64,000 nt of DNA from Candidatus Thalassarchaeaceae archaeon (GCA_023700245.1 JAJPRE010000005.1:7106-71105), one strand, 5' to 3'. Counted from the stretch's first letter, positions 1 through 13,500 are shown. Numbers and translations: made by a program. Notes: a model not told the origin generated them from the sequence alone.

Positions 1-2
1 GC

Positions 3-1253
3 GTCAGAGAACAGGCAGTTGAAAAGGCAGTTCAAAATCAAATCATGACTGCATATGCAATACATGAATTGAATTCTGCAATTGCTAAAGCTGCGGCAGG
101 AAATTTCGGAGTAGACGATGCTCAACATGCATGGGATGAAGGTTGGGGATTGTACCACGGTACTGATGAAGCAGTGTCATGCTCACCATACGCAACTGGA
201 GATAAAAGAGCAGGGAATTTTGCAACTGCAGATGCGGATGGTACTTCATTAGCAAATGCAGCAATACTCGTGGCAATGAATGAAGGATTGGTTGCACTAC
301 AAGCTGAAGATCTTGCTGGCGCAACTGATGCAAGAGATGAGATAATTAAGAATTTAGTAATTATATACTCCCAGGCAACAATTCGATATGCCCACAAGAT
401 GAATACTGATTCAACAGTTGAAGCAGCACAAACACATCAATCAGAAGGTTATTCATTCTGGAGAGTAATTGAGTCTATGGTTGCTGATAGTAATCCATCA
501 CCAGGTAATGATTGCTATAATGGAGTCACAATGGCTGTAAGTGAATTACTATCGGATGAATGTGCCGGTTACATGTATGTAACAAACTATGACATAGGAG
601 ATGGTTCGGACATTTGTTATAATATGGAAATACATGAAGTTTCATCAGATGATACTGAAGTAAAGTGTGATGCTTACATGTTCTTACCAAACTATGGAGC
701 TACAGTATTTACAGGTGCATATAATTCTGTAACTCATACAATGAATTCTAGTTGGAATCAATCAATTACTGAGGGATGGAATTACTACGAAAACACCGAT
801 ATGGGAGATGGAAATTTATTCACAGGTTGCTATAATATGGTATCTCATGAAACTTCTGTCGATGATAATGCAACATGTAGTGCTTATTCATGGTTAATTG
901 ATTTTACAATGAATGATGGAGTAGATACTTGCTACAACAGTGTAACTTATTCCAGTTCAACTGTTAGTCAAGCAGTATGTGAATCATATGGATGGTATGT
1001 TAACTGGGGGGCTACAATGTTTACAGGATGCTATAATACAGTATCTCATGCTACCGATGCCGATATGACAGAAGCTAGTTGTGGAGGATTTTCATACTTT
1101 GAAGGATTTGGAACTGTAGGAATTAATGGAATATATGATTTCAGTAATGTTCCAGTAGCTGGAACTGACTATCAAGTAGCTGTTCGTGCACATCTTCAAC
1201 CAGCATGGGATATGCTAGGGATAACTACTGAAGATATTGGAATTCTTCAATGA
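3..1253 (+). CDS. 5'-truncated protein: helical domain (possibly Fea1/ISIP2a-like low-iron protein) interrupted by six ~35-aa Cys/His repeats
   Basis: The frame of ORF 45..1253 stays open back to nt 3, so the gene starts upstream of the window. Motifs AWDEGWGLYHG and PYATGDKRAGNF are present. Six tandem CYNxV(S/T)H-x8-9-C modules span aa 157-356 of the listed ORF. Confidence 0.6.
   Translation, partial: VREQAVEKAVQNQIMTAYAIHELNSAIAKAAAGNFGVDDAQHAWDEGWGLYHGTDEAVSCSPYATGDKRAGNFATADADGTSLANAAILVAMNEGLVALQAEDLAGATDARDEIIKNLVIIYSQATIRYAHKMNTDSTVEAAQTHQSEGYSFWRVIESMVADSNPSPGNDCYNGVTMAVSELLSDECAGYMYVTNYDIGDGSDICYNMEIHEVSSDDTEVKCDAYMFLPNYGATVFTGAYNSVTHTMNSSWNQSITEGWNYYENTDMGDGNLFTGCYNMVSHETSVDDNATCSAYSWLIDFTMNDGVDTCYNSVTYSSSTVSQAVCESYGWYVNWGATMFTGCYNTVSHATDADMTEASCGGFSYFEGFGTVGINGIYDFSNVPVAGTDYQVAVRAHLQPAWDMLGITTEDIGILQ
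513..1112 (+). repeat. Six tandem in-frame ~35-aa modules (CYN starts at ORF aa 157, 191, 226, 262, 296, 329)
   Basis: Read directly from the translation. The period is 33-36 aa. Module ends alternate between GDGxD and GATxFTG. The third copy lacks the Cys pair. Confidence 0.85.
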
Positions 1254-1306
1254 GATAGTTACCTAATGTGATACATGCAGATCATAGGAAATACACACTT
1301 TACGGT

Positions 1307-1400
1307 AACGGGAGTGCTTAAAACTCAGATTTCTGGAAGCAGAACAGACATCAACAGACTTCATCAAAGTTTTATGCAATTCAAATTAAGCACTCCCGTT
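1307..1400. repeat. Perfect 15-bp inverted repeat AACGGGAGTGCTTAA / TTAAGCACTCCCGTT with a 64-nt spacer, in an intergenic region
   Basis: Arms at 1307-1321 and 1386-1400 are exact reverse complements. The element lies between the stop of the first gene (1253) and the start of the transferrin-like gene (1574). Confidence 0.9.
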
Positions 1401-1573
1401 GACCAAATAATAGCACAATTAATTGAGAGGACAACGGGGCTCAATTATACTAAGAATAAAATTAAAAATTTGTAATTATATAAACTCACAATTAAATGAC
1501 TTAACATCCTAGGAGTAATTAGGCAGAAAATAAAAGTAGTTCCAATTATCGTTATCAAAAAGGTGTTTGTGAT

Positions 1574-3664
1574 ATGAAAATAACTTCAAGAATTACAATT
1601 ATTGTAACTATAATGATTTTGTCAACATTTTTCTCAGGTTGTATCGAAAGTACAAATGAGGAAGGTAATTTAGGAACGCTTGTAATTGCTTATGAGATTA
1701 AAGATAACCTAGAAGATATTGATAATAATCCTCAAATATTAGCAGACTATCTATCAGATAAATTAAATTACGATGTTTCTATTTTTAATGTAGCGTCGGA
1801 AGGTGCCATGATTGAAGCATTAAGATTCGGAAATGCCGATATTGCAGTAATGGATGCTGGATCAGGATGGATTGGTTGGCAACAACATGGATTAGAAGTT
1901 TTAGCTGCTGACTTGAATGAAGATGGAAAGTCATATTATAATTCTCATGCATGGGTGAAAAGAGATAGTGAAATAGGAGTGGCGCAAATTGATGGCGATA
2001 GATATACCGATCCATATTCATTGTTAGCGAGTAAAAATTCCTGTCATACCGGTTGGTTGAAATCAACAGGTATGTTAATCCCAATGGGATTCTTAATTGG
2101 GCACGGATATGCAAACATAATAGGGGATCCCAACGATGTTGAAACAATTAGAAATACAATATATGGTTTTTTTGGAGAGAATTCATCAATTCCTGATGTC
2201 GGTAGCCCATACTACGGAGACGAGGGTGCATTGAGATGCCTATCTGAAGGCAAAGGTGAAGTTGCATTTGCTAATGAAAATACTGTAGAAGCATATTGTG
2301 GGGCAGGTGACGGTATTGAAAAGAAAAATAACTGGTGTGGAAATTTCGAAGATTATGTTGCATTGCCCGCTTTTGGAAAGTCCCCCAGTAATCCACTGAT
2401 GTACAATCCATTTAAACTAAATAATAGTTTATTAGAAGAATTAGAAGAAGTATTAATAGAAATGGATAACGAAATTGAAGGAGTACGTATACTAAAAAAT
2501 ATATTTAATTCTTTAGGATTCATATCCACAAATGCAACAGAACATTTATCAGAATTCTCATCATTAATGTCTAATATTCCTGGAATATCAGCATATTATG
2601 ATGATAAATATGAAATAAATAACTCAATATCTCCTTCTTTAGATAAAATCAGCATAGGGTTTGAAATCAATAATATAAGTAATGATAGCAATCCTGAACT
2701 ATTAGGAAAATATTTAGAAAATACTCTTGGAGTTGAAGTAGAAGTCCACATATTTAATTCAGAAATAGAAATTCTTGACGCATTGGATGCAAATAATATT
2801 GATATCGGATTAGTCAACGAAAATGCAGCATGGTATGGTTGGAAGCAATATAGCCTAGCAGTCATGGCTGCGATAAAAGATGAAAATGGGAAGTCTAAAC
2901 ATGAATCAAAAGCATGGATTAGATCTAGTAGCGACATAGCAATCGCCCTTCTAGATGGCGATGAGGAAACTGACCCGTTTGAATTATTAAACGGTAAAAT
3001 ATCGTGTCATACTAGTTTACTAGATTCTGCAGGGACTTTCATACCATTAGGTAATTTAATTAATAACGGTTACATAAATTCATTTGAAAATGATATTGAA
3101 AATTTTAGTATAATAAATACTATTCAGACATTTCTAAGTAAAAATTCCTCAATACCTGATGAAGATGATGATTATTATGGTGAAGAGGGGGCATTAAAAT
3201 GCCTTTCAAAAGGGACAGGGGATGTAGCATTTACCAAGCATAATGCCATAGAAAAATTTTGTACTGGCCCTGAGAGTGCTGAATGGTGTCTTGATGCTGC
3301 CCAATATATATCTCTTCCAACTTTAGGAGAAATTCCTGCCAAATCTATAATTTATAATCCAAATTATTTAGATATTCAAACTAGAACTGCTATTTTGAAT
3401 TCATTAATGACACTTAATTATAAGATGTATGTTGAAAATTATTCAGTCATGGGAAATATATATACTGGATGTTATGATATTTCTGTTCATGTGATAGATG
3501 AAGAATCGCCAAAGAATAATTGCGGATCTGAAATTTTACATAATGTCTTAGAATCATCCGGAATAATTACAATTAATTCCCAGGATCACTTGGGCAAATA
3601 TTCTGAGATTATTACTAATATACCTAAAATTATAGAATATCACCAGCAACTATTACAAATATAA
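1574..3664 (+). CDS. Bilobal transferrin-like / PhnD-type substrate-binding lipoprotein
   Basis: Signal peptide with lipobox-like FFSGC. Internal duplication of lobe 1 (aa ~33-345) and lobe 2 (aa ~355-696). Both lobes carry SCHT(G/S)...(S/T)(A/T)G..IP.G and YYG(D/E)EGAL(R/K)CLS.G.G(E/D)VAF motifs, which resemble serum transferrin. A GGTG ribosome-binding site lies upstream of the ATG. Confidence 0.85.
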   Translation: MKITSRITIIVTIMILSTFFSGCIESTNEEGNLGTLVIAYEIKDNLEDIDNNPQILADYLSDKLNYDVSIFNVASEGAMIEALRFGNADIAVMDAGSGWIGWQQHGLEVLAADLNEDGKSYYNSHAWVKRDSEIGVAQIDGDRYTDPYSLLASKNSCHTGWLKSTGMLIPMGFLIGHGYANIIGDPNDVETIRNTIYGFFGENSSIPDVGSPYYGDEGALRCLSEGKGEVAFANENTVEAYCGAGDGIEKKNNWCGNFEDYVALPAFGKSPSNPLMYNPFKLNNSLLEELEEVLIEMDNEIEGVRILKNIFNSLGFISTNATEHLSEFSSLMSNIPGISAYYDDKYEINNSISPSLDKISIGFEINNISNDSNPELLGKYLENTLGVEVEVHIFNSEIEILDALDANNIDIGLVNENAAWYGWKQYSLAVMAAIKDENGKSKHESKAWIRSSSDIAIALLDGDEETDPFELLNGKISCHTSLLDSAGTFIPLGNLINNGYINSFENDIENFSIINTIQTFLSKNSSIPDEDDDYYGEEGALKCLSKGTGDVAFTKHNAIEKFCTGPESAEWCLDAAQYISLPTLGEIPAKSIIYNPNYLDIQTRTAILNSLMTLNYKMYVENYSVMGNIYTGCYDISVHVIDEESPKNNCGSEILHNVLESSGIITINSQDHLGKYSEIITNIPKIIEYHQQLLQI

Positions 3665-3820
3665 TGAGATAATCAGATTTTTAATAGTGAATATAGTTTC
3701 CCGGCAGTACCAAATAAGAGTTTAGGACCCCCTAAACTTTAGACAAAGTATTGGGAAGTGGTTTGAATATCGGCAAATAGAGTTGAAGAAATTCCTTTAG
3801 TTCGTCTAAATGATGTTTTA

Positions 3821-4480
3821 ATTGGATATAATTCCAAAAATCTACTATGTAAAATCCCAAACTTAGAAATTTGGCCAGGAGAAGTTGTTGCCATAACTGG
3901 ACCATCAGGAGTTGGAAAAACTACTTTGCTCAGAACTATAGCAGGAATCGTCTCACCATTAGAGGGCAATGTGGAAGTATGTGGTGATTTATTACCTCAT
4001 AAACCTAAAAGGGGGAGATTGGGTTACGTCCCTCAGAGACTTGGATTAGTAAGGCATGCTAGTATAATGCATAATGTCATGCTGGGGGCCACTGCTGGAA
4101 GTTCAACAATTTTTCATTCTTCGGAAGTAAAGAAGAAGGCACATCTGGCCATTGAAAGAATGGGATTAACCGACAAAATATTAGAGCCAGTTAGAAAATT
4201 ATCAGGAGGGCAACAAAGAAGAGTAGCGACTGCAAGAACTTTGGCACAGGAACCAAAATTAATACTAGCAGATGAGTTTTTGAGTGAATTAGATGAAGAA
4301 ACCATGGAGATGGTCCTAAATGAAGTATTAGAGTATGTTCGTAAAAGCGGTGCTGCATTGATTGTAGTTGAACATGACATAGCAAGGGCTAGATCAATGG
4401 CAGATAGATTATTAGTTATTGATGACGGAAGAATTAACCCGTTTATCAGAGAAGTCACTGCAATGGAGGTCAAAGTATGA
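3821..4480 (+). CDS. ABC transporter ATP-binding protein (PhnC-like); N-terminus apparently disrupted by a frameshift
   Basis: Walker A GPSGVGKTT, signature LSGGQQRR and Walker B LILADE are present. The expected N-terminal strand and A-loop Tyr (IPLVRLNDVLIGYNSKN) are encoded in a different frame at 3781-3840. The TTG at 3821 is the first possible start in the Walker A frame. Confidence 0.75.
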   Translation: MGYNSKNLLCKIPNLEIWPGEVVAITGPSGVGKTTLLRTIAGIVSPLEGNVEVCGDLLPHKPKRGRLGYVPQRLGLVRHASIMHNVMLGATAGSSTIFHSSEVKKKAHLAIERMGLTDKILEPVRKLSGGQQRRVATARTLAQEPKLILADEFLSELDEETMEMVLNEVLEYVRKSGAALIVVEHDIARARSMADRLLVIDDGRINPFIREVTAMEVKV

Positions 4481-5355
4481 TTACAATTCAGAATAAGATA
4501 TTATTCTTGTTCTTTGGCACCATATTTTTCACATTCTGGATATTGGATGGAATGGTCAATCATTGGGGAAGACTATCAGGAAGTTTTGGGAACTTAATTA
4601 CATTTTTCAATGAGTCATTATGGCCACCAGACTGGAGCGTCATTAAACCTCAAGCATATCCGGTTTGCACTGCATATCCATTATTTGATTTTACGTGTTC
4701 AACAGCATGGATTGGCATGATTGAAACGATAAAAATTGCATTTGTAGCCACAATATTGGGATCAATAATATCATTGCCATTATCTATGATTGCAGCACGT
4801 AACCTTAATTCGAAGGGTATCTCATACTTTATTAGATTCGTATTGGCAGGTGCTAGAAGTTTACCAAGCATAATATGGGCAATATTTTTTGTTATTTTAG
4901 TCGGCTTTGGGCCTTTTGCAGGAGTATTGGCTATGACAATATACACTGTTGGATACTTAGGTAAATTACAATATGAAGCAATAGAGGGGATGAATAACAT
5001 TCCTTTGGAGACTGCAAAGTCAATGGGACTATCAAAATTTGAAATTGCAATAGGAGTTGTAATACCTGAAATGGCCAATAGCTTGATATCACAAACAATT
5101 TTTATGTTTGAATATAATGTTAGACATGGCACAGTAATAGGAATAGTTGGAGCAGGTGGTATTGGATATTACATCAATCTATACCTAAAATTTCTACAAT
5201 ATGATAAAGTAATTTCTTATCTAATAATTATTTTCATTGTAGTGCTAGTAATAGACTTTATTTCAATATCGGCAAGATCATTATTTAATGAGGAAGGAGA
5301 TTTATCAAAACCGTCATGGTGGGGAGTTTTTGGATCGCCAAATAGTAAGAAATAA
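4477..5355 (+). CDS. ABC transporter permease, PhnE-like
   Basis: PhnE-type motifs: ETIKIAF...LPLSMIAARNL, SLPSIIWAIFFV, EAIEG, VGAGGIGYY. The start overlaps the ATPase stop by 4 nt (ATGA). Confidence 0.9.
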   Translation: MITIQNKILFLFFGTIFFTFWILDGMVNHWGRLSGSFGNLITFFNESLWPPDWSVIKPQAYPVCTAYPLFDFTCSTAWIGMIETIKIAFVATILGSIISLPLSMIAARNLNSKGISYFIRFVLAGARSLPSIIWAIFFVILVGFGPFAGVLAMTIYTVGYLGKLQYEAIEGMNNIPLETAKSMGLSKFEIAIGVVIPEMANSLISQTIFMFEYNVRHGTVIGIVGAGGIGYYINLYLKFLQYDKVISYLIIIFIVVLVIDFISISARSLFNEEGDLSKPSWWGVFGSPNSKK

Positions 5356-5366
5356 ATAGAAAATAT

Positions 5367-5591
5367 TCAAATATCATCGGCTATAATTCTTATTGAGCCG
5401 TCCTTATAGGAAATCTGTATATTATCTTTAACCTTGTAAGTTAATGCTGCCAATGCCTCATAAACTTCTTTTTCATCAACTTTGAAAGCTTCTGCTGCGC
5501 GTTTGGTTGACCATGGTACTTCAGTAAAATCTGAAGATGCAATCCATTTCAACATCCTAGCTTCGAAAGCAGTTAAATCCATAGAAGACAT
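5367..5591 (-). CDS. Small hypothetical protein (74 aa), possibly winged-helix-like
   Basis: ORF lying 4 nt downstream of gpsA on the same strand. No recognisable catalytic motif. Confidence 0.5.
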   Translation of the reverse strand: MSSMDLTAFEARMLKWIASSDFTEVPWSTKRAAEAFKVDEKEVYEALAALTYKVKDNIQISYKDGSIRIIADDI

Positions 5592-5595
5592 AATT

Positions 5596-6603
5596 TTAGC
5601 TCCTATACGATTCTACCATTTTTCTTACGGCATCTTCCACTTCTATTTCTCCTTCAAGTAATTCCCATAATGAAGATAAGAAGGGAGTATGGAGTTGTAA
5701 TTTTAATGCTTGATCTAAAAATGATTTAGTAGCCCTTACTCCTTCTGCAACCATGAACATATCATTTAAGGCCTGATCGAGGCTCATTCCTGAACCAAGT
5801 TTTTCACCTAATGTTCTGTTACGGCTTCTTGGGCTTGTTGCTGTAACATATAAGTCACCAATCCCAGCAGGACCAAAAGCAGTATTTTCCTTAGCACCCA
5901 TCTTTCCTAGAAGCAATATTCCTTCGCTGTATCCAGCAAGAACTAACGCTGCTTTGAGATTATCTCCACCTATTGAGTCTCTTAAACCATCAACTAGTCC
6001 GCAGGCTAATGCGACAGTGTTCTTGTACGCCCCCCATAATTCAGCCCCTATTGGATCTACAGCAGGCGTCAATATCAATGAGCTAGTAGAGAGTCTTTCT
6101 GCCACTCTTTCTGCAACGGATCTGTCATGACAGGCCACTAATGCATTTGTCAAGACTCCTCTTGCTACTTCCGGAGCAATGGTAGGGCCCGTCATAACTA
6201 CTACAGGATTATTCTTTCCAGCCGCACTTAATTTTTCCTCCAATACTTCAGATATTAGTCCATGTTTTTCTTTTTCAGGAGCCAGGCCTTTTGCCAAGTC
6301 AACTATTACATGAGATGGCCGTAAATATTGAATCATATCGTCGAAGACGGATATAATTACTGAACTAGGTAACGCCATTATGATTAATTCGCAAGTTTCT
6401 AAGATATCCGAAAGTTCCATTGTTGCTTGTAAGCCCGATAAATCATGACCTGGCAGGTACTTAGTATTCAGACTATCTTCCATTAAAGACTGATATACTT
6501 CATGTTCAACCGTCCATCCAGATACATTATGCCCATCATCTATCCATATCTTAGCAAGAGCAGTGCCCCAATTACCTAAACCTACTATACCAATTCGAGC
6601 CAT
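5596..6603 (-). CDS. gpsA: NAD(P)H-dependent glycerol-3-phosphate dehydrogenase (bacterial GpsA type)
   Basis: N-terminal Rossmann motif IGIVGLGNWGTALA and a GpsA-like C-terminal domain. The ORF extends to 6681, but the ATG at 6603 (MARIGIVG) matches the canonical GpsA N-terminus. Confidence 0.85.
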   Translation of the reverse strand: MARIGIVGLGNWGTALAKIWIDDGHNVSGWTVEHEVYQSLMEDSLNTKYLPGHDLSGLQATMELSDILETCELIIMALPSSVIISVFDDMIQYLRPSHVIVDLAKGLAPEKEKHGLISEVLEEKLSAAGKNNPVVVMTGPTIAPEVARGVLTNALVACHDRSVAERVAERLSTSSLILTPAVDPIGAELWGAYKNTVALACGLVDGLRDSIGGDNLKAALVLAGYSEGILLLGKMGAKENTAFGPAGIGDLYVTATSPRSRNRTLGEKLGSGMSLDQALNDMFMVAEGVRATKSFLDQALKLQLHTPFLSSLWELLEGEIEVEDAVRKMVESYRS

Positions 6604-6703
6604 ATCAGTAAAACCACGACATTCCATCCCTGTTATCATACTATTGGGATTAGTAACATCATACGTTGCATTCTTGACCATAAAGCGCTCGCATCATAAA
6701 TAA

Positions 6704-6788
6704 GCAGGGGTACCCGAGTGGTCAAAGGGGCTGGGTTTAGGTCCCAGTGCGTAGTGCTTCGCAGGTTCAAATCCTGTCCCCTGCACCA
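6704..6788 (+). tRNA. tRNA-Leu (anticodon UAG), class II with long variable arm and encoded CCA
   Basis: Acceptor GCAGGGG/CCCCTGC. Anticodon stem CTGGG/CCCAG with loop TTTAGGT. Variable arm about 13-16 nt. T-arm GGTTCAAATCC. Discriminator A followed by CCA. Confidence 0.9.
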
Positions 6789-6794
6789 GGAAAG

Positions 6795-9700
6795 TCATTC
6801 CAAATGTATTCTCTTTGATCGGAACTTAGCAATTTTAGTTTTTTGCCAATTAACCAATCTAAATAACATTAATATTAAGAAAATCGATATTAATGTTATT
6901 AATAAATATACATCCTGATTAAATGGCCTAGTTGGATCATATGGATGAGAATCTTGAGTATCTGGAATGTTGTCTCCATCATCATCAATATCCAATAGGT
7001 TAATTTCTCCATCATTATCTAAATCCAAGAAGTCAATTGACGAGAATTCAGGAATTTCTAACTCTTCTTCTTCCACGATATTTAGATTTGGATCCGGTAT
7101 ACATCCAATTATATTTCCAATTGCAAGTAAATGAGTAATGTCAACATATGAAGAATTCAATCCTGGTTCAAAAATACAACCATCGGAATTATCTCCTACA
7201 GAATCTCCATCAGAATCCATCCATTCCAAGGGATCATTGTCGAAAAGGTCAAAGTTGTCTCCTTTATTATCTCCATCTAAATCGCTCCATTCATTTGGAT
7301 CTAATTCAAAAGAATCATTAGAATCCTCATAGCCATCATTGTCATCATCTTTATCTAAATTATTACCTTGTGTATCTCCATCTGTATCTATATATTCAGA
7401 AGGATCAAGTGGGAACTCGTCCCCTAACAAATTACAATATTCTAAAGTAATTATATATACTGGATGGCCATTAGATAAATTGACAAAGTCTGATGGATAA
7501 ATTAGTGGATATGAGGATGGTAGATAGTTTAAAACAGAAGGATGCATTAAAGGAACTTCTTCGCCCATTGATGTTAAAATACTAAGACTACCAATATTGT
7601 GATTACTGCCATAATTATTATTTGATGAATCAACAAAGGATGTCCCAGTATTAGTATCACATACGCCATCACCATCATCATCTGCATCGAAATTATCGCC
7701 TAATTGATCCCCGTCATAATCAGACCATTCAAATTTATTAGAAGAAAATGTATCAAAGTTATCTGTTCTTCCATCATTATCATCATCCTGATCAGTATTA
7801 TCTCCAATACCATCTGAATCGGTGTCACTCCACTCAGTCCTATCTAAGGGAAAAGCATCCATAATTATTACTTGATAGACTATATTGCCATTTGAATCTA
7901 AAGTTTGTAAGGTATAAGTATCATTTACTCCGTCATTATCATCATCCGGGTCAATATTATCTGGAATTTGATCACTATCGGTGTCTGCAGAAACATTCGG
8001 ATCCAATGGATCAAAATCGATTACATCTGGTACTCCATCGTTATCATCATCTAAATCATTGATATCTACGATCGAATCTCCATCCGTATCCAATATACAG
8101 TCATTAAGAGAATTCGAAGCTGTTCGAATTGTAGATTTTAATTCTGGACATGCAATTTGATCCATTGCCATCACAGTTTCAACATAATATCCAAGTGAAG
8201 CCTCTGCACAACTTGCTAAACCTCTGATATTAGAATAATGTCCTATCTTACAAGGGGACTGATCTAGTGAAGAAGAATTTGGAGCATCGTAACCCTTGGC
8301 TGCAAGCGAACAAGATGTTTGACCAGAAGAGGGCTGATAAGTACCTGGATTACAGGGAGTTTGGAAACCTGAACCATGATTGAGATCTATATTTTCAGGA
8401 GCATTGTTATCCACAATATTTCCATTGCCTAATTGCCCATTAGAGTTATATCCCCAGCAATACAAAGTTGCATCATCCAATATTGCACAAGAATGTCTTT
8501 GCCCTACTGAAATTGATAATGCTGAACGACCAATAGGAATATCAACTTCATCGGCAATTATCCTATTATCATTAGTTCCATCTCCAAGTTGACCTTTTGC
8601 ATTATCTCCCCAGCAAATTACATTACCACCATCTAAAACTGAACAGGTATGATGGAATCCGGACTCTACAATAGATGGTATTTGATTTTCAGAGAGGGGG
8701 ACTGGATTTGGAAGATTGAAATTATCATAATTTCCATTACCTAGTTGGCCTCCTGAATTAAAGCCCCAGCAATACAATGAATTGTTAATCATAATTGAAC
8801 AAGTATGAAATGCTCCACTACTTATTGATCTAGATTGATATTGACTTCCTAATGACTTAGGAGTTAATTGCCTATCATTACTACCATCTCCAAGTTGACC
8901 ATGCCAATTATCGCCCCAACATTCAATTGAAGAGTTAATCAATATTGCACATGTGTGATATGATCCAGCAGATAATGAAATAACATCAGAGCCATCGAAT
9001 AAAATTTTAGTTGGAATATTCCTATCTGAAGTAGAGCCGTCTCCTAACTGCCCATTGGCATTTCCTCCCCAGCATTTTACAGAATTATCATCAAGAATTG
9101 AACATGTGTGCGTTTGCCCTAAAGTAATGCTTGATGCAGATCTACCATTGCCAAGTTTGACTAATGTGGGAGCCGTTCTTTCAACTGTCGTACCATCTCC
9201 CAATTGGCCTTGGGAATTGTCCCCCCAGCACCTAAGAGATCCATCATCAAAAATTGCACATGAATGTGCTAAGCCGGTAGATACAGATATTGCAATACGT
9301 CCTAATGGAGTATTTACTACAGTTGGGGTCAATTTATCATCTCTTGAACCATCTCCTAATTGTCCATTACCATTACTCCCCCAGCAACGTATAGCCCCAT
9401 CATCCAAAATTGCACAGGAATGTAAATTACCAGCGTTTACATCTGTTAAGATAGGGACATTGAACCCTGGGTCTGAACCGATGCAATCTGTTGGTGAATT
9501 TGAGCCAGTTAAAGGATTATATGTCCCTCCTGAGCATGCAATTTGTGCACTTGAACCAATTGAACTAACATAATAACCGGCATTGGCATCATCACATTTA
9601 TCCATCCCGGATAATTTTTGAAATGTACCTATTGAGCAAGGAGATTGAGAAGTTGCGCCATTTGTATCTACATAATTTCCTGGACTTGCAGGTACCTTAA

Positions 9701-12700
9701 TCAAACTTCCAGGGGTATCGACATAGAAGCCAACAGTAGCTTCTTGGCAATAATAGCGACCATATTCTCCTATTCCACAAGTGACTGCAATCGCAGGATT
9801 GTTATCATCGGAATCTGAGCCTGAAGGATAACCGTCACCATCAGCATCAGATGCTATATGTGTGTCAAAAATATTTAGAATTGAATCGTCATCTAAGTCC
9901 CTTTCTGCAGCATTTATGTATGACCACCTAGGCAAAGTAACATCTGTTGGAGATGATCCGATATCAAGAGATTGGATATCTCCTAAGCCCCAACATCGCA
10001 ACATATCATTACTTGTGGAAGAACAGGTGTAATGGCCCCCTGAAGAAACGCTTATTGGAAATTTACCGCCTGTGAAGGAGATAGCCGAAGGAGTATTTTG
10101 ACTACTATCAGTACCATCTCCTAGTTGTGAAAATGAGTTGTCCCCCCAGCATTTTAAAATATTTGTTGTATCCAAAACACAAGAATGAGAATTACCAAGA
10201 GATACTGAAGAAATTCCTGAAACTATATTTGAAATTGGAGAGTTTGAGTTTACATTTGTACCATCACCTAGTTGTCCTTCCGAATTACTACCCCAACAGC
10301 TTAGAGTAGTGTCACTAAGAATTGTGCAAGTATGCATATAACCAGTTGAAACGGCTACTGGAGTAGTAGATAGTGAGACTATAGTTGGAGTATATCTATC
10401 AGAAGTTGAAGAGTCCCCTAACTGGCCATGAGAGTTATCGCCCCAACACTTTAGATTGGGAGTATTTGTAATAGCGCAAGTATGACTTCCTCCCGTTGAA
10501 ATGGCTAATACTAAATCGGATCCCAAATCTACGGATGATGGATAATAGACAGAATTTGTAGTACCATCGCCTAACTGTCCATCAGAATTATCTCCCCAGC
10601 ATTTTAAATTAGCAGTTGCAAGTACAACACAAGTGTGATATGAACCAGCAGAAATAGTGACAGGAACATCAGAACCCAAATCAATATCCAAAGGAATTGA
10701 TGAGTCCAGTACTGAACCATCGCCCAACTGGCCTTGGGAATTACTTCCCCAACATTTTAGACTAGCATCATCCAATATTGCACAAGTATGAGAATTTCCA
10801 GAGGAAATTGAAACAGCAGTACGGCCGATGCCGAAATTCACAGGAGTCATAGTTTGTCTATCTGTAGTAGTTCCATCTCCCAATTGTCCTTCAGAATTGT
10901 CTCCCCAACAATTTACGGATGAGTCATCCAATATTGCACAAAAGTGACCATTGCCAGTTGAAAGTGTTGTTTCGGTAAATATGGAACCTTCTTGGAAACC
11001 AGGATCATTGAGGCTTCCCGAAACTGGTTGACTCATGTCAGTTAACATATAATTATCACTTACTGCTATTGCAAATTTTTGAGGACCTTCCGGAACGTTT
11101 GTCCCGGATACTATTATTTCCCAATCTCCTGCATCCGGACTATCTACTGATAGTCCTAGTAAATTATTAATATTTCCAGTTTTTTGACCATATATATTTC
11201 CGGAAGGATCTTTTAGCGTCATATCAAGATCATTGACTAGGCATTGTGTAGAACAGGAAGATACGCTGATATTATGTGAGTCAGTCCATGAAAGAATAAC
11301 ATCAAAAGAAGGAGTTCCGACAGGAATTGAGAGCCTGATTGACTTACTTTCGGAAGTTGCAATTTCTAATTGATCCAAAAAGGAGCTAGATATTGCATCT
11401 TGAACATTTATTCTTCCCCATCCTTCATGGTTATTTGGAGTTGTTTGAGCAGCGCCATTGGAGCCCCCATACTGACCTTCCATATCTACACTAGTGGCAC
11501 TAAAAATACCTTTTATAAGGGCTGAGCTTGGAGTTAAATAACCAGCATTATTCAAGTTTTCAATTAGCAGGGCAGCAGCACCCGCAGCCAAGGGAGTAGC
11601 CATTGAAGTCCCCGATTTATATGTGTAATCAGACCATTCTTCAGGATTACCGTCTCCATTCATATCAATATTTACCGGATTACCATCAGATTCACTTGAT
11701 AAAACAGAAACTACACGAGTTCCTGGGGCCACTAAATCAGGCTTTATTCTGCCATCTTGAGTTGGGCCCCTGTTGGAATTACACCAAACTCCATCAATAT
11801 TATTAGCTTCGTAATCTGAAGCAATAGGTTCAACGGGAAATTTGATTATGGTTCGCTGTCCATTCCCATCCTTTTCGAGATACAGATCACAAGTAATCAT
11901 GCTAGAAGGGCGATTATTTTCTGATGCACCAATAGAAAATCCATTTTTTGTTACTGCTTGGGGTTGTATCCAAGAAGTATCGATTTCTCCATCTGCATTA
12001 TAATCATTACCTTCATTCCCTAAAGCAAATAATATTACAAGATCTTCATAAGTATATGCTGCTTGATCTATTTGTTTTGAATACGAGGTATAATAGTTAG
12101 GACTCAAAGTTTCGGGGTCCGTGCCCCAAGAATTTGTTTGCACTCTAACGCCTGCTTCATAGGCCGGAGTTGCTATTCCTGATACAAAATTTGAAGGAGA
12201 ATAGAGGCCTGCAGGTCCACAAGGTCCTAATTCATCCATTGCATAAAACCATAATTCCGATTCATATGCCATACCTTTGAAAAATCCTCCAGAATTTGAG
12301 CCATCGCCTACTGCAGAGCCAGCAACATGAGTGCCGTGACCATTGATGTCTGCAGGATCGTCGTCGTCGCAACCCCTGCTTGCAGGCGCATTGGAGCCGG
12401 TTATGATAGTCTTTATTCTACCAGAGAAATCAGAGTTGATAGTGGGATTATTGACATTGCATGATGAAATTGAAGTACATAAGTTAGCATTATCAAGGCC
12501 TGAATCAGCAACTCCTATTATTACTCCATCTCCTGTAAGTACATTGCCAGACCCGCCCATGTAAGAAGCATCCCAAACATGATCTATGCCAAGAATTTCG
12601 GCAGCTTTATCATCAAATAGTCGTGCTGGATATTTTGGTTCCATCCACTCAACGTACTCCTGATTAGATAGCCAAAGTATTTCCTTCTCATCCACAACGA

Positions 12701-13364: not shown

Positions 13365-13500
13365 GTTTAATGTACGTAGTAGGAAGGGCATTAAAACTAC
13401 TGATTGATTTATGTTTTTATAAGTATAATTATGCATCTTTAACTATAAAATATTAATATGCAGGGAACAGGAATATAGGCCATGACTTCTTGGGTTAAAT

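What the first reader, a model, noticed from the sequence alone, without database searches (positions are those of the whole stretch)
3..5355. Transferrin-like binding protein wired to a PhnC/PhnE-type ABC importer in an archaeon: candidate new metal/anion uptake system
Four co-directional genes make up the locus. The first is a 5'-truncated protein whose helices AWDEGWGLYHG and PYATGDKRAGNF remind me of Fea1/ISIP2a low-iron-inducible algal proteins; this is from memory and unverified. The second is a 696-aa lipoprotein made of two homologous lobes, each with transferrin hallmark motifs. The third is a PhnC-like ATPase and the fourth a PhnE-like permease (AARNL, VGAGGIGY). Transferrin-family proteins are essentially eukaryotic and work without an ABC partner, while PhnD-type binding proteins are single-lobed. 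A bilobal transferrin-like binding protein feeding a PhnCE-type importer would be a mechanistic hybrid. It would also fit the published proposal, from diatom phytotransferrin work, that transferrins and phytotransferrins derive from PhnD-like anion-binding proteins.
Basis: partly seen in the sequence, partly recalled or inferred. Interest (0 to 1): 0.8.

Follow-up and report, generated by a model that had tools for sequence, protein, structure and literature searches.

The report
Archaeal transferrin feeding an ABC importer
A gene cluster that marine Group II archaea are said to use for phosphonate uptake encodes a two-lobed transferrin relative, an algal-type iron-capture lipoprotein and an ABC pump behind an iron-repressor binding site, so it is most likely an unrecognised iron-uptake system, although this genome's copy has lost several of the classical iron-binding residues.

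Summary
Window 3..5355 holds four co-directional genes:
- a 5'-cut FEA1-related lipoprotein;
- a 696-aa lipoprotein with two homologous lobes that passes both Pfam Transferrin and Phosphonate-bd;
- a PhnC-like ATPase;
- a PhnE permease.

The binding protein's solved relatives, by sequence and by fold, are all transferrins. It fails NCBI's PhnD models.

The family spans Poseidoniales (396 relatives in species genomes). In 66 of 71 loci it sits directly before the ATPase and permease. Most members carry the full transferrin site, Asp/Tyr/Thr/Lys/Tyr/His, in both lobes. The window's protein is a derived form: the N-lobe reads D-Y-T-K-D-N and the C-lobe N-H-T-D-E-K.

Four lines point to iron rather than phosphonate:
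- A fixed palindrome, TTTAGG-N4-CCTAAA, occurs in 80 of 86 loci (window 3721-3736). It equals one dimer's share of the DtxR/IdeR iron box.
- A DtxR-type repressor gene sits divergently beside it in four loci.
- FEA1, a FecCD-type transporter, flavodoxin and a HugZ-like gene are neighbours in relatives.
- No phosphonate catabolism gene was found nearby.

I found no paper describing this. MGII genomics lists it as phosphonate transport. Verdict: a new variant of a known kind, interest high. The substrate of this particular copy is uncertain.

The parts
3..1253 (+). g1: FEA1-related (Fea1/ISIP2a family) surface lipoprotein. It is 5'-truncated by the window edge and lacks about 134 N-terminal residues, including the signal peptide and lipobox.
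   Evidence: Pfam Fea1 E 4.6e-9, above the gathering score. NCBIfam NF038033 scores 221 bits on the fragment and 370 bits against a cut-off of 250 on the full-length orthologue L004:8053-9702, which is 94% identical. dN/dS against L004 is 0.10.
513..1130 (+). Six tandem modules of about 34 aa with the pattern 'G-C-Y-N-x-V-x-H ... C' (a Cys pair) in the C-terminal half of g1.
   Evidence: Motif positions are at aa 171, 205, 239, 276, 310 and 343 of the partial protein. They are modelled as beta-hairpin repeats. tblastn links them to the C-lobe insert of the trilobal relative.
1574..3664 (+). g2: bilobal transferrin-family lipoprotein, the substrate-binding protein of the ABC importer.
   Evidence: Pfam Transferrin and Phosphonate-bd are both above cut-off. 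The PDB sequence hits shown (best 60 of 97) are all transferrin-family proteins, the best being melanotransferrin at 4e-20, or 1.5e-30 with the family profile. The AF2 model has pLDDT 79.9, and the Foldseek top 50 are all transferrins, E 3e-29.
1667..2608 (+). N-lobe (aa 32-345). The ligand-equivalent positions are D94, Y122, T159, K163, D216 and N273, which is 2 of the 4 transferrin metal ligands plus the Thr/basic anion site.
   Evidence: Positions were mapped through the lactoferrin and ovotransferrin alignments and checked on an axolotl serotransferrin. dN/dS is 0.11.
2639..3661 (+). C-lobe (aa 356-696). The ligand-equivalent positions are N415, H443, T480, D484, E537 and K590, so the metal and anion site is degenerate, yet the lobe is under purifying selection.
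   Evidence: dN/dS is 0.14-0.22. It falls in a clade of degenerate C-lobes with 100% bootstrap support.
3440..3529 (+). A single copy of the Cys-pair module (YTGCYDISVH...C) inserted in the C-lobe. The same module is repeated in g1.
   Evidence: C633, H639 and C650 are invariant in the family alignment. This stretch has low pLDDT in the model.
3700..3720 (+). Conserved A/T-rich element CCCGGCAGTACCAAATAAGAG just upstream of the palindrome. It is a candidate archaeal BRE/TATA for an internal promoter of g3-g4.
   Evidence: It is conserved as ..CAATACCAAATA.. in MGIIb loci whose flanking sequence has diverged. Its role as a promoter is inferred.
3721..3736 (.). 16-bp palindrome TTTAGGACCCCCTAAA, a candidate operator for a DtxR-family iron-dependent repressor.
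   Evidence: It is the only exact match in the 64 kb window, where 0.38 are expected by chance. There are 168 sites with a fixed 4-nt spacer in 80 of 86 loci, at fixed promoter-proximal positions. In L046, L057, L058 and L061 the sites lie between the binding-protein gene and a divergent DtxR-family gene.
3767..4480 (+). g3: PhnC-like ABC ATPase. The reading frame opens at ATA 3767, after TGA 3764-3766. There is no ATG, GTG or TTG before the Walker A motif.
   Evidence: Pfam ABC_tran. The best NCBIfam hit is PhnC at 148 bits. It is 31% identical to E. coli PhnC, E 2e-34. In the first 159 nt, dN is 0 and dS is 0.17.
4477..5355 (+). g4: PhnE-type permease. Its start overlaps the g3 stop by 4 nt.
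   Evidence: NCBIfam PhnE equivalog scores 221.8 bits against a cut-off of 216.7. Pfam BPD_transp_1 also matches.

Best explanation
The locus is an iron-regulated ABC importer whose extracellular receptor is a membrane-anchored transferrin homologue. It is most likely a high-affinity uptake system for inorganic ferric iron.

Proposed mechanism for the family:
1. The lipoprotein sits on the outer face of the single archaeal membrane.
2. Each intact lobe closes on Fe(III) using Asp, two Tyr and His. A synergistic carbonate is held by Thr, a Lys (in place of transferrin's Arg) and a helix N-terminus.
3. The loaded protein docks on a PhnE-type permease dimer. A PhnC-type ATPase dimer drives import.
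4. A DtxR-type repressor bound to TTTAGG-N4-CCTAAA operators shuts the genes off when iron is sufficient.

In the window's lineage (a subclade of Thalassarchaeaceae, MGIIb) a FEA1/ISIP2a-type lipoprotein gene has been added in front. The C-lobe has lost its site, and the N-lobe keeps only Asp, one Tyr, Thr and Lys, with Asp and Asn replacing the second Tyr and the His. I infer that FEA1 now takes part in iron capture. The altered transferrin would then act as the shuttle or docking partner to the permease, perhaps with changed affinity or metal preference.

Shown here: homology, architecture, synteny, residue patterns, operator distribution, and regulator adjacency in relatives.

Inferred: the substrate, the role of carbonate, repression by iron, and the hand-over from FEA1.
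For: **Transferrin identity**
- Pfam Transferrin scores 88.7 bits against a cut-off of 20.3.
- The PDB sequence hits shown (best 60 of 97) are all transferrin-family proteins, at E 4e-20 for the single sequence and 1.5e-30 for the family profile.
- The Foldseek top 50 are all transferrins, E 3e-29.
- E. coli PhnD matches only weakly, at 8.5 bits against the lobe profile.
- The PhnD equivalog and the phosphonate-binding subfamily cut-offs are both failed.

**Metal site in the family**
- 74 of 120 homologues, and 47 of the 68 loci with enough upstream flank, carry D-Y-T-K-Y-H in both lobes.
- The same six positions read D-Y-T-K-Y-H in the N-lobe of an axolotl serotransferrin (Thr-Arg-Tyr recovered in its C-lobe) and D-Y-T-R/K-Y-H in ichthyosporean proteins.

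**Coupling to the importer**
- The binding-protein gene is followed directly by the ATPase and permease genes in 66 of 71 loci.

**Iron regulation**
- The palindrome is at window 3721-3736 and at 168 sites in 80 of 86 loci.
- Two copies lie upstream of FEA1 in the 92%-identical relative L004.
- TTAGGCTAACCTAA in L061 equals positions 6-19 of the IdeR/DtxR iron box (the iron-box sequence is from my own knowledge).
- A divergent DtxR-family gene is present in four loci. It keeps the Fe-type primary-site residues Met10, Cys102, Glu105 and His106.

**Iron neighbours**
- FEA1 lies directly upstream in 23 loci.
- L075 reads FEA1, transferrin-like protein, Peripla_BP_2, FecCD, ATPase, flavodoxin, HugZ-like, PhnC-like, PhnE-like.
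- The trilobal homologue sits next to a FecCD-type system.

**No phosphonate link**
- No phosphonate catabolism genes were found in the window ORFs scanned or within 10 kb in three relatives.

**Both lobes and FEA1 are under purifying selection**.
Against: - No binding or transport data exist.
- The window's own protein lacks the second Tyr and the His in the N-lobe, and all four ligands in the C-lobe. Ferric binding by this copy is doubtful on transferrin precedent.
- Pfam Phosphonate-bd scores slightly higher than Transferrin (104.9 against 88.7 bits). The permease is a bona fide PhnE by NCBI's cut-off, and no PhnE-type permease is known to me to move iron.
- DtxR-family repressors can also sense Mn. 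NCBIfam's best (sub-threshold) hit for the regulator is MntR.
- No regulator gene was found in the window ORFs scanned, which covered only part of the 64 kb.
- The palindrome also occurs between an rfbA-like gene and a membrane-protein gene in five related loci.
- The association between FEA1 and a degenerate lobe is not corrected for phylogeny.
Confidence: 0.62

Rival explanations
1. It is what it is annotated as: a phosphonate, phosphite or phosphate ABC importer (PhnCDE type). The binding protein would simply be a duplicated, divergent PhnD, and the resemblance to transferrin would reflect only the shared ancestry of the two families.
For: Pfam Phosphonate-bd is the top hit at 104.9 bits, and PhnE passes its equivalog cut-off. 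PhnC is the best ATPase model. JGI and NCBI name relatives as phosphate/phosphonate binding proteins. Tully 2019 lists phosphonate transport as a core MGII trait (PMC6336850).
Against: The binding protein fails the PhnD equivalog (53 bits against 261) and the phosphonate-binding subfamily (74 against 112). Similarity to E. coli PhnD is confined to about 100 N-terminal residues. All PDB hits shown are transferrin-family proteins. The complete Asp/Tyr/Tyr/His set is conserved across the family. The operators and the adjacent regulator are DtxR-type rather than phosphate-type. The neighbours are FEA1, FecCD, flavodoxin and HugZ-like genes. No C-P lyase or phosphonatase gene was found nearby.
Confidence: 0.1
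2. It is a metal importer, but in this lineage for a metal other than ferric iron, such as Mn(II), Fe(II) or another hard cation. The replaced ligands would have retuned the N-lobe to an all-oxygen/amide site (Asp, Tyr, Asp, Asn plus an anion).
For: The window clade reads D-Y-T-K-D-N in the N-lobe. This is conserved in P0001 and P0002, with dN/dS 0.11, so the change is maintained rather than decay. DtxR-family regulators include Mn sensors, and the best NCBIfam hit for the regulator is MntR, though sub-threshold. Other MGIIb subclades show further variant sets: DYTNHN, DYTKFD and DYTHFD.
Against: The regulator keeps the Fe-type Met10/Cys102 primary site. The variant binding proteins are the ones paired with FEA1, a family known from low-iron responses in algae (PMC7676907). 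The operator and the gene order are unchanged from canonical loci.
Confidence: 0.15
3. In the window lineage the transferrin-like protein no longer binds a ligand itself. It serves only as an adaptor that docks an FEA1-iron complex onto the permease.
For: There is a strong association between an upstream FEA1 gene and loss of ligand residues: 18 of 19 degenerate loci have FEA1 against 3 of 49 canonical loci, Fisher p 2e-12. The degenerate C-lobe is under purifying selection. A Cys-pair module is shared by FEA1 and the C-lobe.
Against: The N-lobe still keeps Asp, Tyr, Thr and Lys at the cleft. In most FEA1-linked loci the N-lobe is fully canonical. No interaction evidence exists. The statistic ignores shared ancestry.
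Confidence: 0.1

Closest known systems
Eukaryotic transferrins (serum transferrin, lactoferrin, ovotransferrin, melanotransferrin; Pfam PF00405)
   Same: They are homologous by sequence and fold, with two homologous lobes. Across the archaeal family the same Asp/Tyr/Tyr/His metal ligands and the same Thr-at-helix-N-terminus anion site sit at the same alignment positions. One degenerate lobe also occurs in some eukaryotic members; melanotransferrin is the example I have in mind (own knowledge).
   Different: The archaeal proteins are lipid-anchored and genetically coupled to an ABC permease and ATPase, instead of being soluble proteins taken up by receptor-mediated endocytosis. Lys replaces the anion-binding Arg. 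The lobe duplication is independent of the eukaryotic one: the MGII N- and C-lobes form a clade with 97% bootstrap support. The window copy lacks two (N-lobe) and four (C-lobe) of the ligands.
PhnCDE phosphonate ABC importer (E. coli PhnD/PhnC/PhnE; also PtxB/HtxB-type phosphite systems)
   Same: The gene order is binding protein, ATPase, permease. The permease passes the PhnE equivalog, PhnC is the best ATPase model, and the binding protein matches Pfam Phosphonate-bd.
   Different: The binding protein is two-lobed and fails the PhnD equivalog and subfamily cut-offs. It carries transferrin metal ligands, is under DtxR-type operators, and has no phosphonate catabolic neighbours.
FbpABC / FutABC / HitABC ferric-ion ABC importers ('bacterial transferrin' FbpA)
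   Same: This is the closest working analogy. A class II binding protein holds naked Fe(III) with tyrosinates and a synergistic anion, then delivers it to an ABC permease under iron repression (own knowledge).
   Different: FbpA belongs to a different binding-protein family, and no such Pfam family was hit at E<=1. It is single-lobed, and it works in a Gram-negative periplasm downstream of outer-membrane receptors. Here the protein faces sea water directly.
Diatom phytotransferrin ISIP2a and Chlamydomonas FEA1 (Pfam PF07692)
   Same: g1 is a member of this family by profile. Both are surface-anchored and linked to low-iron uptake of unchelated ferric iron (PMC7676907).
   Different: The archaeal protein is a lipoprotein with six added Cys-pair repeats, encoded in an operon with an ABC importer. 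The algal proteins work by endocytosis or with FTR1/FOX1. The model is all-helical plus beta hairpins, with no PDB match.
DtxR/IdeR iron-dependent repressor regulons
   Same: The operator half-sites are TTAGG/CCTAA with a 4-nt spacer, which is what one repressor dimer covers in the 19-bp iron box. The adjacent regulator has the Fe_dep_repress, Fe_dep_repr_C and FeoA-like domains and the Met/Cys/Glu/His primary site.
   Different: The sites are single-dimer 16-bp palindromes, usually in pairs 35-44 bp apart, rather than the overlapping double-dimer 19-bp box. Binding and metal response are untested.

Membership tests
Transferrin family (PF00405) | Profile match above the curated cut-off | tested here: met
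   88.7 bits against 20.3, in three stretches. The family profile against PDB gives 1.5e-30, and the best 60 of 97 hits are all transferrin-family proteins.
Transferrin family (PF00405) | Transferrin fold, with two homologous lobes | tested here: met
   The lobes are 37% identical, E 1e-73. The Foldseek top 50 are all transferrins at full length, E 3e-29. The global TM-score is only 0.3-0.4; I attribute this to a different lobe orientation but did not test it.
Transferrin family (PF00405) | Four metal ligands (Asp, Tyr, Tyr, His) in a lobe | tested here: not met
   In the window protein the N-lobe has D94 and Y122 but D216 and N273. The C-lobe has N415, H443, E537 and K590. The feature is met in both lobes of 74 of 120 homologues.
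Transferrin family (PF00405) | Synergistic-anion site: Thr plus Arg at the N-terminus of helix 5 | tested here: inconclusive
   T159 and T480 are present. Arg is replaced by K163 in the N-lobe, as in nearly all archaeal and many ichthyosporean lobes, and by D484 in the C-lobe.
Transferrin family (PF00405) | Reversible Fe(III)-carbonate binding | not testable with these tools
   Needs recombinant protein, spectroscopy and titration.
PhnD phosphonate-binding protein (TIGR03431 / TIGR01098 / PF12974) | NCBIfam equivalog and subfamily cut-offs | tested here: not met
   PhnD scores 53.3 bits against 261.1. The phosphate/phosphite/phosphonate subfamily scores 74 against 112. A canonical relative also fails, at 68 and 100.6 bits.
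PhnD phosphonate-binding protein (TIGR03431 / TIGR01098 / PF12974) | Pfam Phosphonate-bd match | tested here: met
   104.9 bits against 27, in two stretches.
PhnD phosphonate-binding protein (TIGR03431 / TIGR01098 / PF12974) | Genomic link to phosphonate catabolism (C-P lyase, phosphonatase) | tested here: not met
   None was found among 30 window ORFs scanned, nor within 10 kb either side in L001, L004 and L006. Whole genomes were not searched.
PhnCE-type ABC importer core | PhnE permease equivalog | tested here: met
   221.8 bits against 216.7.
PhnCE-type ABC importer core | PhnC ATPase equivalog | tested here: not met
   It is the best hit but scores 147.9 bits against 266.1. It is 31% identical to E. 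coli PhnC.
FEA1-related lipoprotein (NF038033) / Fea1 (PF07692) | Profile match above cut-off | tested here: met
   Pfam scores 36.3 bits against 25 on the fragment. NF038033 scores 221 against 250 on the fragment, and 370 on the full-length 94%-identical orthologue.
FEA1-related lipoprotein (NF038033) / Fea1 (PF07692) | Signal peptide with lipobox | tested here: inconclusive
   The N-terminus lies outside the window. The orthologue in L004 begins MNYKKNKTITIMAVLLFATSAFAGC.
DtxR/IdeR iron regulon | Operator with TTAGG/CCTAA half-sites in promoter regions | tested here: met
   Window 3721-3736. There are 168 sites in 80 of 86 loci with a fixed N4 spacer, and two copies lie upstream of FEA1 in L004.
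DtxR/IdeR iron regulon | Cognate DtxR-family repressor | tested here: inconclusive
   None was found in the window ORFs scanned. One is present divergently beside the operators in L046, L057, L058 and L061, with the Fe-type primary-site residues. Binding is untested.
FbpA/FutA ferric binding proteins | Membership of the SBP_bac_1/6/11-type families | tested here: not met
   No such family appears among the Pfam hits at E<=1.

The most novel reading that the evidence does not exclude
Planktonic archaea carry true, ABC-coupled, iron-repressed transferrins, in single-, double- and triple-lobed forms. The groups involved are Poseidoniales and MGIII, with single-lobe forms in Nitrosopumilus and Heimdallarchaeota MAGs. 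These proteins would be the missing prokaryotic stage of transferrin evolution. In this reading:
- holozoan and animal transferrins are sister to, or nested within, the archaeal forms;
- the two-lobe architecture arose twice, independently;
- in one MGIIb lineage, including this window, a phytotransferrin-family lipoprotein and a ligand-stripped transferrin have become a two-protein relay for iron.

The 'phosphonate transporter' counted in the MGII core genome would then be their main, carbonate-dependent iron uptake route.
Probability: 0.35. Interest if true: 0.85.

Novelty: new variant of a known kind. Interest (0 to 1): 0.75.

Why it matters
- **An unrecognised iron route.** Marine Group II archaea are among the most abundant surface-ocean heterotrophs, and no dedicated iron uptake route has been described for them in the papers I could search. 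For Nitrosopumilus, one paper states outright that Fe-specific transporters are absent (PMC6776035).
- **Annotation and ecology.** If this operon is an iron importer, a trait listed as phosphonate transport in MGII pangenomes is mis-assigned. Archaeal iron acquisition would then share the carbonate dependence, and the sensitivity to acidification, shown for diatom phytotransferrin.
- **Transferrin evolution.** It supplies a concrete prokaryotic, transporter-coupled stage. Intact single-lobe and multi-lobe forms are available for experiment.
- **A candidate operator.** The operator motif gives a direct handle for mapping iron regulons in uncultured archaea.

Tried and rejected
- **RNA reading of the g2-g3 spacer.** Rfam found nothing in 1-7000 except a tRNA. 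Folding 3665-3770 gave z = -1.3. The hairpin reading of the palindrome was dropped for two reasons. The same 16-mer lies upstream of the first gene's promoter, in untranscribed DNA. Both half-sites are also kept letter for letter across MGIIa, MGIIb and MGIII while the spacer varies. Half-site invariance within matched sites is by construction of the pattern. The argument therefore rests on recurrence at the same position in 80 of 86 loci.
- **Sigma-70 promoter and terminator scan.** It was uninformative for an archaeon.
- **Regulator or phosphonate genes in the window.** 30 ORFs were scanned and none was found. The scan is not exhaustive.
- **FEA1 fold assignment.** There was no PDB sequence hit and no Foldseek hit with E<0.8.
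- **Lobe-by-lobe superposition on PhnD against transferrin.** Not done. Model coordinates are not exposed, and the PDB hit lists are saturated by transferrins. Profile scores against E. coli PhnD were used instead.
- **Literature.** No paper was found on archaeal or prokaryotic transferrin homologues. Several hits were artefacts of 'transferring'. McQuaid 2018 is not in the library and was cited only through PMC7676907.
- **Unused tools.** The third homology search, the viral and metagenome scans and RNA model building were not needed.

Full report
**1. What is in the window**

Positions 3..5355 carry four co-directional genes on the + strand.

- **g1 (3..1253)** is cut at its 5' end by the window edge. 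It matches Pfam Fea1 above the gathering score (36.3 bits against 25). It also matches NCBIfam NF038033, 'FEA1-related lipoprotein', at 221 bits. The full-length orthologue in a close relative (L004:8053-9702, 550 aa, 94% identical over the shared part) starts with a signal peptide and lipobox. It scores 370 bits against a cut-off of 250.
- **g2 (1574..3664)** is a 696-aa lipoprotein (…FFSGC). Its halves are 37% identical, E 1e-73.
- **g3** is an ABC ATPase whose best model is PhnC, at 148 bits and below the cut-off.
- **g4 (4477..5355)** passes the PhnE equivalog, 221.8 bits against 216.7. The g3 stop and the g4 start overlap.

The closest genomes are Thalassarchaeaceae (MGIIb) MAGs: L007 at 95% and L008 (UBA557) at 92%.

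**2. The binding protein is a transferrin relative rather than an ordinary PhnD**

- Pfam gives both Phosphonate-bd (104.9 bits) and Transferrin (88.7 bits), each well above its cut-off.
- NCBI's curated PhnD equivalog (53 against 261) and the broader phosphate/phosphite/phosphonate subfamily (74 against 112) are both failed.
- Against all PDB sequences, the 60 best of 97 hits are all transferrin-family proteins. They include melanotransferrin, ovotransferrin, lactoferrin, serotransferrin and saxiphilin. The E-value is 4e-20 for the single sequence and 1.5e-30 for a 29-member family profile.
- An AlphaFold2 model (pLDDT 79.9, pTM 0.71) finds only transferrins in its top 50 Foldseek hits. These are aligned over the full length, E 3e-29. 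The global TM-score is low at 0.3-0.4. I attribute this to a different relative orientation of the lobes, which I did not test.
- E. coli PhnD, fetched for comparison, aligns only over the first ~100-130 residues. BLASTP gives E 3e-4, and the lobe profile gives 8.5 bits.

**3. The metal site**

I mapped the transferrin ligand positions through the printed alignments. Lactoferrin Tyr92 and Tyr192 and ovotransferrin Tyr524 served as anchors (the ligand numbering is from my own knowledge). I then read these positions in all homologues.

The six positions are Asp63, Tyr95, Thr120, Arg124, Tyr188 and His249 in human N-lobe numbering.

- 74 of 120 close homologues read D-Y-T-K-Y-H in both lobes.
- The three-lobed relative P0003 reads D-Y-T-K-Y-H in all three lobes.
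- Single-lobe archaeal forms read the same.
- Ichthyosporean multi-lobe proteins read D-Y-T-K/R-Y-H.
- An axolotl serotransferrin reads D-Y-T-K-Y-H in its N-lobe, with Thr-Arg-Tyr recovered in its C-lobe, which validates the mapping.

The family as a whole therefore has the complete transferrin iron-plus-anion site, with Lys in place of Arg.

The window's protein does not. Its N-lobe reads D94-Y122-T159-K163-D216-N273. Its C-lobe reads N415-H443-T480-D484-E537-K590. This pattern is shared with P0001 and P0002. Both lobes remain under purifying selection against L004 and L008, with dN/dS 0.11 and 0.14-0.22. The changes are therefore maintained, not decay.

**4. Distribution and synteny**

- An exhaustive search of 1.84 billion cluster representatives found only 329 related representatives.
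- A scan of one genome per GTDB species found 396 coding relatives. The best 80 are nearly all labelled Poseidoniales or an equivalent name: MGIIa, MGIIb and one MGIII. They include the original MG-II genome CM001443. Two have bacterial titles, which I take to be mis-binned contigs.
- The binding-protein gene is directly followed by the ATPase and permease genes in 66 of 71 loci with enough downstream sequence.
- Tully 2019 lists 'transport of phosphonates' among core MGII traits (PMC6336850). I presume this refers to the same operon.
- None of the Pfam-annotated neighbourhoods, nor the 30 further window ORFs I scanned, contains a C-P lyase or phosphonatase gene.

**5. Evidence for iron from regulation**

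The g2-g3 spacer holds a sequence conserved well beyond its surroundings. It consists of an A/T-rich element followed by the palindrome TTTAGGACCCCCTAAA at 3721-3736.

- The pattern TTAGG-N(3-6)-CCTAA occurs once in the 64 kb window, where 0.38 are expected by chance.
- It occurs in 80 of the 86 loci, and 168 of 170 sites have exactly four spacer bases. The flanking T and A extend the palindrome in about 90% of sites.
- The sites sit at fixed places. Two copies, 35-44 bp apart, lie just upstream of the first gene of the operon. That first gene is FEA1 where it is present. In L004 there are two identical TTTAGGGCACCCTAAA sites 44 bp apart that flank a TATA-like element. MGIIb loci have one more copy before the ATPase gene.
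- TTAGG-N4-CCTAA is the part of the 19-bp DtxR/IdeR iron box TTAGGTTAGGCTAACCTAA covered by one repressor dimer (own knowledge). One site in L061 reads TTAGGCTAACCTAA, identical to box positions 6-19.

The palindromes lie in the shared intergenic region.

- Pfam confirms the Fe_dep_repress, Fe_dep_repr_C and FeoA-like domains.
- The protein keeps Met10, Cys102, Glu105 and His106. This primary-site set distinguishes iron-sensing DtxR/IdeR from manganese-sensing MntR (the distinction is from my own knowledge).
- NCBIfam does not resolve the metal; all its hits are below cut-off.

**6. Evidence for iron from neighbours**

FEA1 lies directly upstream in 23 loci.

In L075, and by homology in L077 and L078, the operon reads as follows:
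1. FEA1
2. canonical bilobal transferrin-like protein
3. a CarboxypepD_reg-domain surface protein
4. Peripla_BP_2
5. FecCD
6. ATPase
7. flavodoxin
8. a PNPOx/DUF2470 (HugZ-like) protein
9. PhnC-like ATPase
10. PhnE-like permease

The three-lobed P0003 is likewise followed by a Peripla_BP_2/FecCD/ATPase set.

In several FEA1-type loci a second operon carries the same palindrome. It encodes a membrane-anchored single-lobe paralogue with the full D-Y-T-K-Y-H set and a GSDH-like lipoprotein. The window has no such paralogue.

**7. FEA1 and lobe degeneration go together**

Among loci with more than 2.5 kb of upstream sequence:
- 46 of the 49 with canonical lobes lack FEA1;
- 18 of the 19 with a degenerate C-lobe or an altered N-lobe have FEA1.

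Fisher's exact test gives p = 2e-12, not corrected for shared ancestry. The degenerate C-lobes form one clade with 100% bootstrap support. This may therefore be one or a few evolutionary events.

g1 and the C-lobe of g2 also share a ~30-aa Cys-pair module (G-C-Y-N/D-x-V/I-x-H … C). It occurs six times in g1 and once in g2.

The FEA1 model (pLDDT 78.9) is a bundle of long helices followed by beta-hairpin repeats. It has no PDB match. It is not a periplasmic-binding-protein fold. In this archaeal protein I therefore see no support for a PhnD-like origin of phytotransferrins. PMC7676907 attributes that idea to McQuaid 2018.

**8. Evolution (rough)**

I built a neighbour-joining tree of 70 lobes, rooted on E. 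coli PhnD, with 100 bootstraps.

- Eukaryotic lobes (an axolotl serotransferrin plus Ichthyosporea) are monophyletic in 87%.
- All MGII N- and C-lobes, plus the single-lobe paralogues, are monophyletic in 97%. The archaeal duplication is therefore independent of the eukaryotic one.
- A single-lobe D-Y-T-G-Y-H group lies outside everything else in 96%. It includes proteins labelled Nitrosopumilus and Heimdallarchaeota.
- Whether eukaryotes are sister to the archaeal forms or nested within them is unresolved, at 17%.

**9. Conclusion**

The best-supported reading is an iron-repressed ABC importer with a surface-anchored transferrin homologue as receptor.

For the family, Fe(III) with a synergistic anion is the likely substrate. 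For this window's copy the substrate is uncertain, because two N-lobe ligands and the whole C-lobe site are replaced. An FEA1-assisted relay, or a shifted metal preference, are live alternatives.

The plain phosphonate reading is not excluded, but it is now the weaker one.

Within the searchable literature I found no description of archaeal transferrins (ten searches, listed under Tried and rejected). Subscription-only papers could not be checked.

Noticed in passing
window 3750-3930: The ATPase gene has no ATG, GTG or TTG start before its Walker A motif. The frame opens at ATA 3767, right after TGA 3764-3766, and the first canonical start is TTG 3926. The same arrangement is found in L004, L007 and L008, and gene callers truncate the product to 184 aa. 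Between genomes, the first 159 nt show dN = 0 and dS = 0.17, so they are translated. L009 and other relatives have a normal ATG or TTG. The real initiation codon is unknown; ATA 3767, ATT 3791 or something else are possible.
   Followed up: partly
window 3700-3736; L004 7966-8025; L061 7922-7986: The 16-bp palindrome TTTAGG-N4-CCTAAA recurs at promoter-proximal positions of this operon throughout Poseidoniales and MGIII, with 168 sites in 80 of 86 loci. It also lies between an rfbA-like gene and a membrane-protein gene in L069, L072, L074, L076 and L080, about 5.8 kb upstream. The regulon may therefore be wider than iron uptake.
   Followed up: partly
window 513-1130 and 3440-3529: A ~30-34-aa Cys-pair module (G-C-Y-N/D-x-V-x-H … C) is repeated six times in the FEA1-like protein and inserted once in the C-lobe of the transferrin-like protein. 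It is invariant in the family, has no Pfam family, and its function is unknown.
   Followed up: partly
L016 11910-14207 (- strand); also L017, L018, L023, L038, L044, L049, L086: A second operon has the same palindrome in front. It encodes a membrane-anchored single-lobe transferrin-like paralogue (356 aa, full D-Y-T-K-Y-H set) and a GSDH-like (PQQ-type beta-propeller) lipoprotein, next to a GDPD-family gene. It is not present in the window.
   Followed up: partly
L075 3434-15066: A probable iron-acquisition island: FEA1, bilobal transferrin-like protein, a 786-aa CarboxypepD_reg protein, Peripla_BP_2, FecCD, ATPase, flavodoxin, a PNPOx/DUF2470 (HugZ-like) protein, PhnC-like ATPase and PhnE-like permease.
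   Followed up: partly
P0003 / L002 2018-5488: A three-lobed version (1156 aa, all lobes D-Y-T-K-Y-H) exists in Tara metagenomes. Ichthyosporean proteins have 2-5 lobes, for example Chromosphaera perkinsii P0129 at 1894 aa. Other hits of up to 2661 aa, with up to 13 matched stretches, were not identified.
   Followed up: partly
P0243, P0267: Single-lobe relatives reading D-Y-T-G-Y-H are labelled Nitrosopumilus and Heimdallarchaeota in NCBI. A published study states that N. maritimus SCM1 lacks Fe-specific transporters (PMC6776035). Whether SCM1 itself has this gene was not checked.
   Followed up: no
L004 5900-7891 (- strand); homologues in most MGIIb loci: A conserved ~650-aa protein with no Pfam or NCBIfam match is transcribed divergently from the operon and shares the operator-bearing intergenic region. 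It lies just outside the window.
   Followed up: no
window 5367-5591 (-): A 74-aa ORF lies between the permease gene and gpsA. ORFs of 71-74 aa with no family match are called at the same position in L004 and L006.
   Followed up: no
window 5596-6681 (-), 6704-6788 (+), 6795-13436 (-): Downstream neighbours are a GpsA-type NAD-dependent glycerol-3-phosphate dehydrogenase (its synteny with the operon is conserved across the order), a tRNA-Leu, and a 2213-aa protein. The orthologue of that large protein in L004 matches subtilisin (S8) and RCC1 repeats.
   Followed up: no
L001 12100-12940 and 14070-15080: The ATPase and gpsA genes of this 1.49-Mb long-read contig are split by frameshifts. These are probably assembly errors rather than pseudogenes.
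   Followed up: no
L023, L068 (record titles): Two contigs carrying typical MGII versions of the operon are deposited under Rhodobacteraceae and Rhodobiaceae MAG names. This is probably mis-binning.
   Followed up: no
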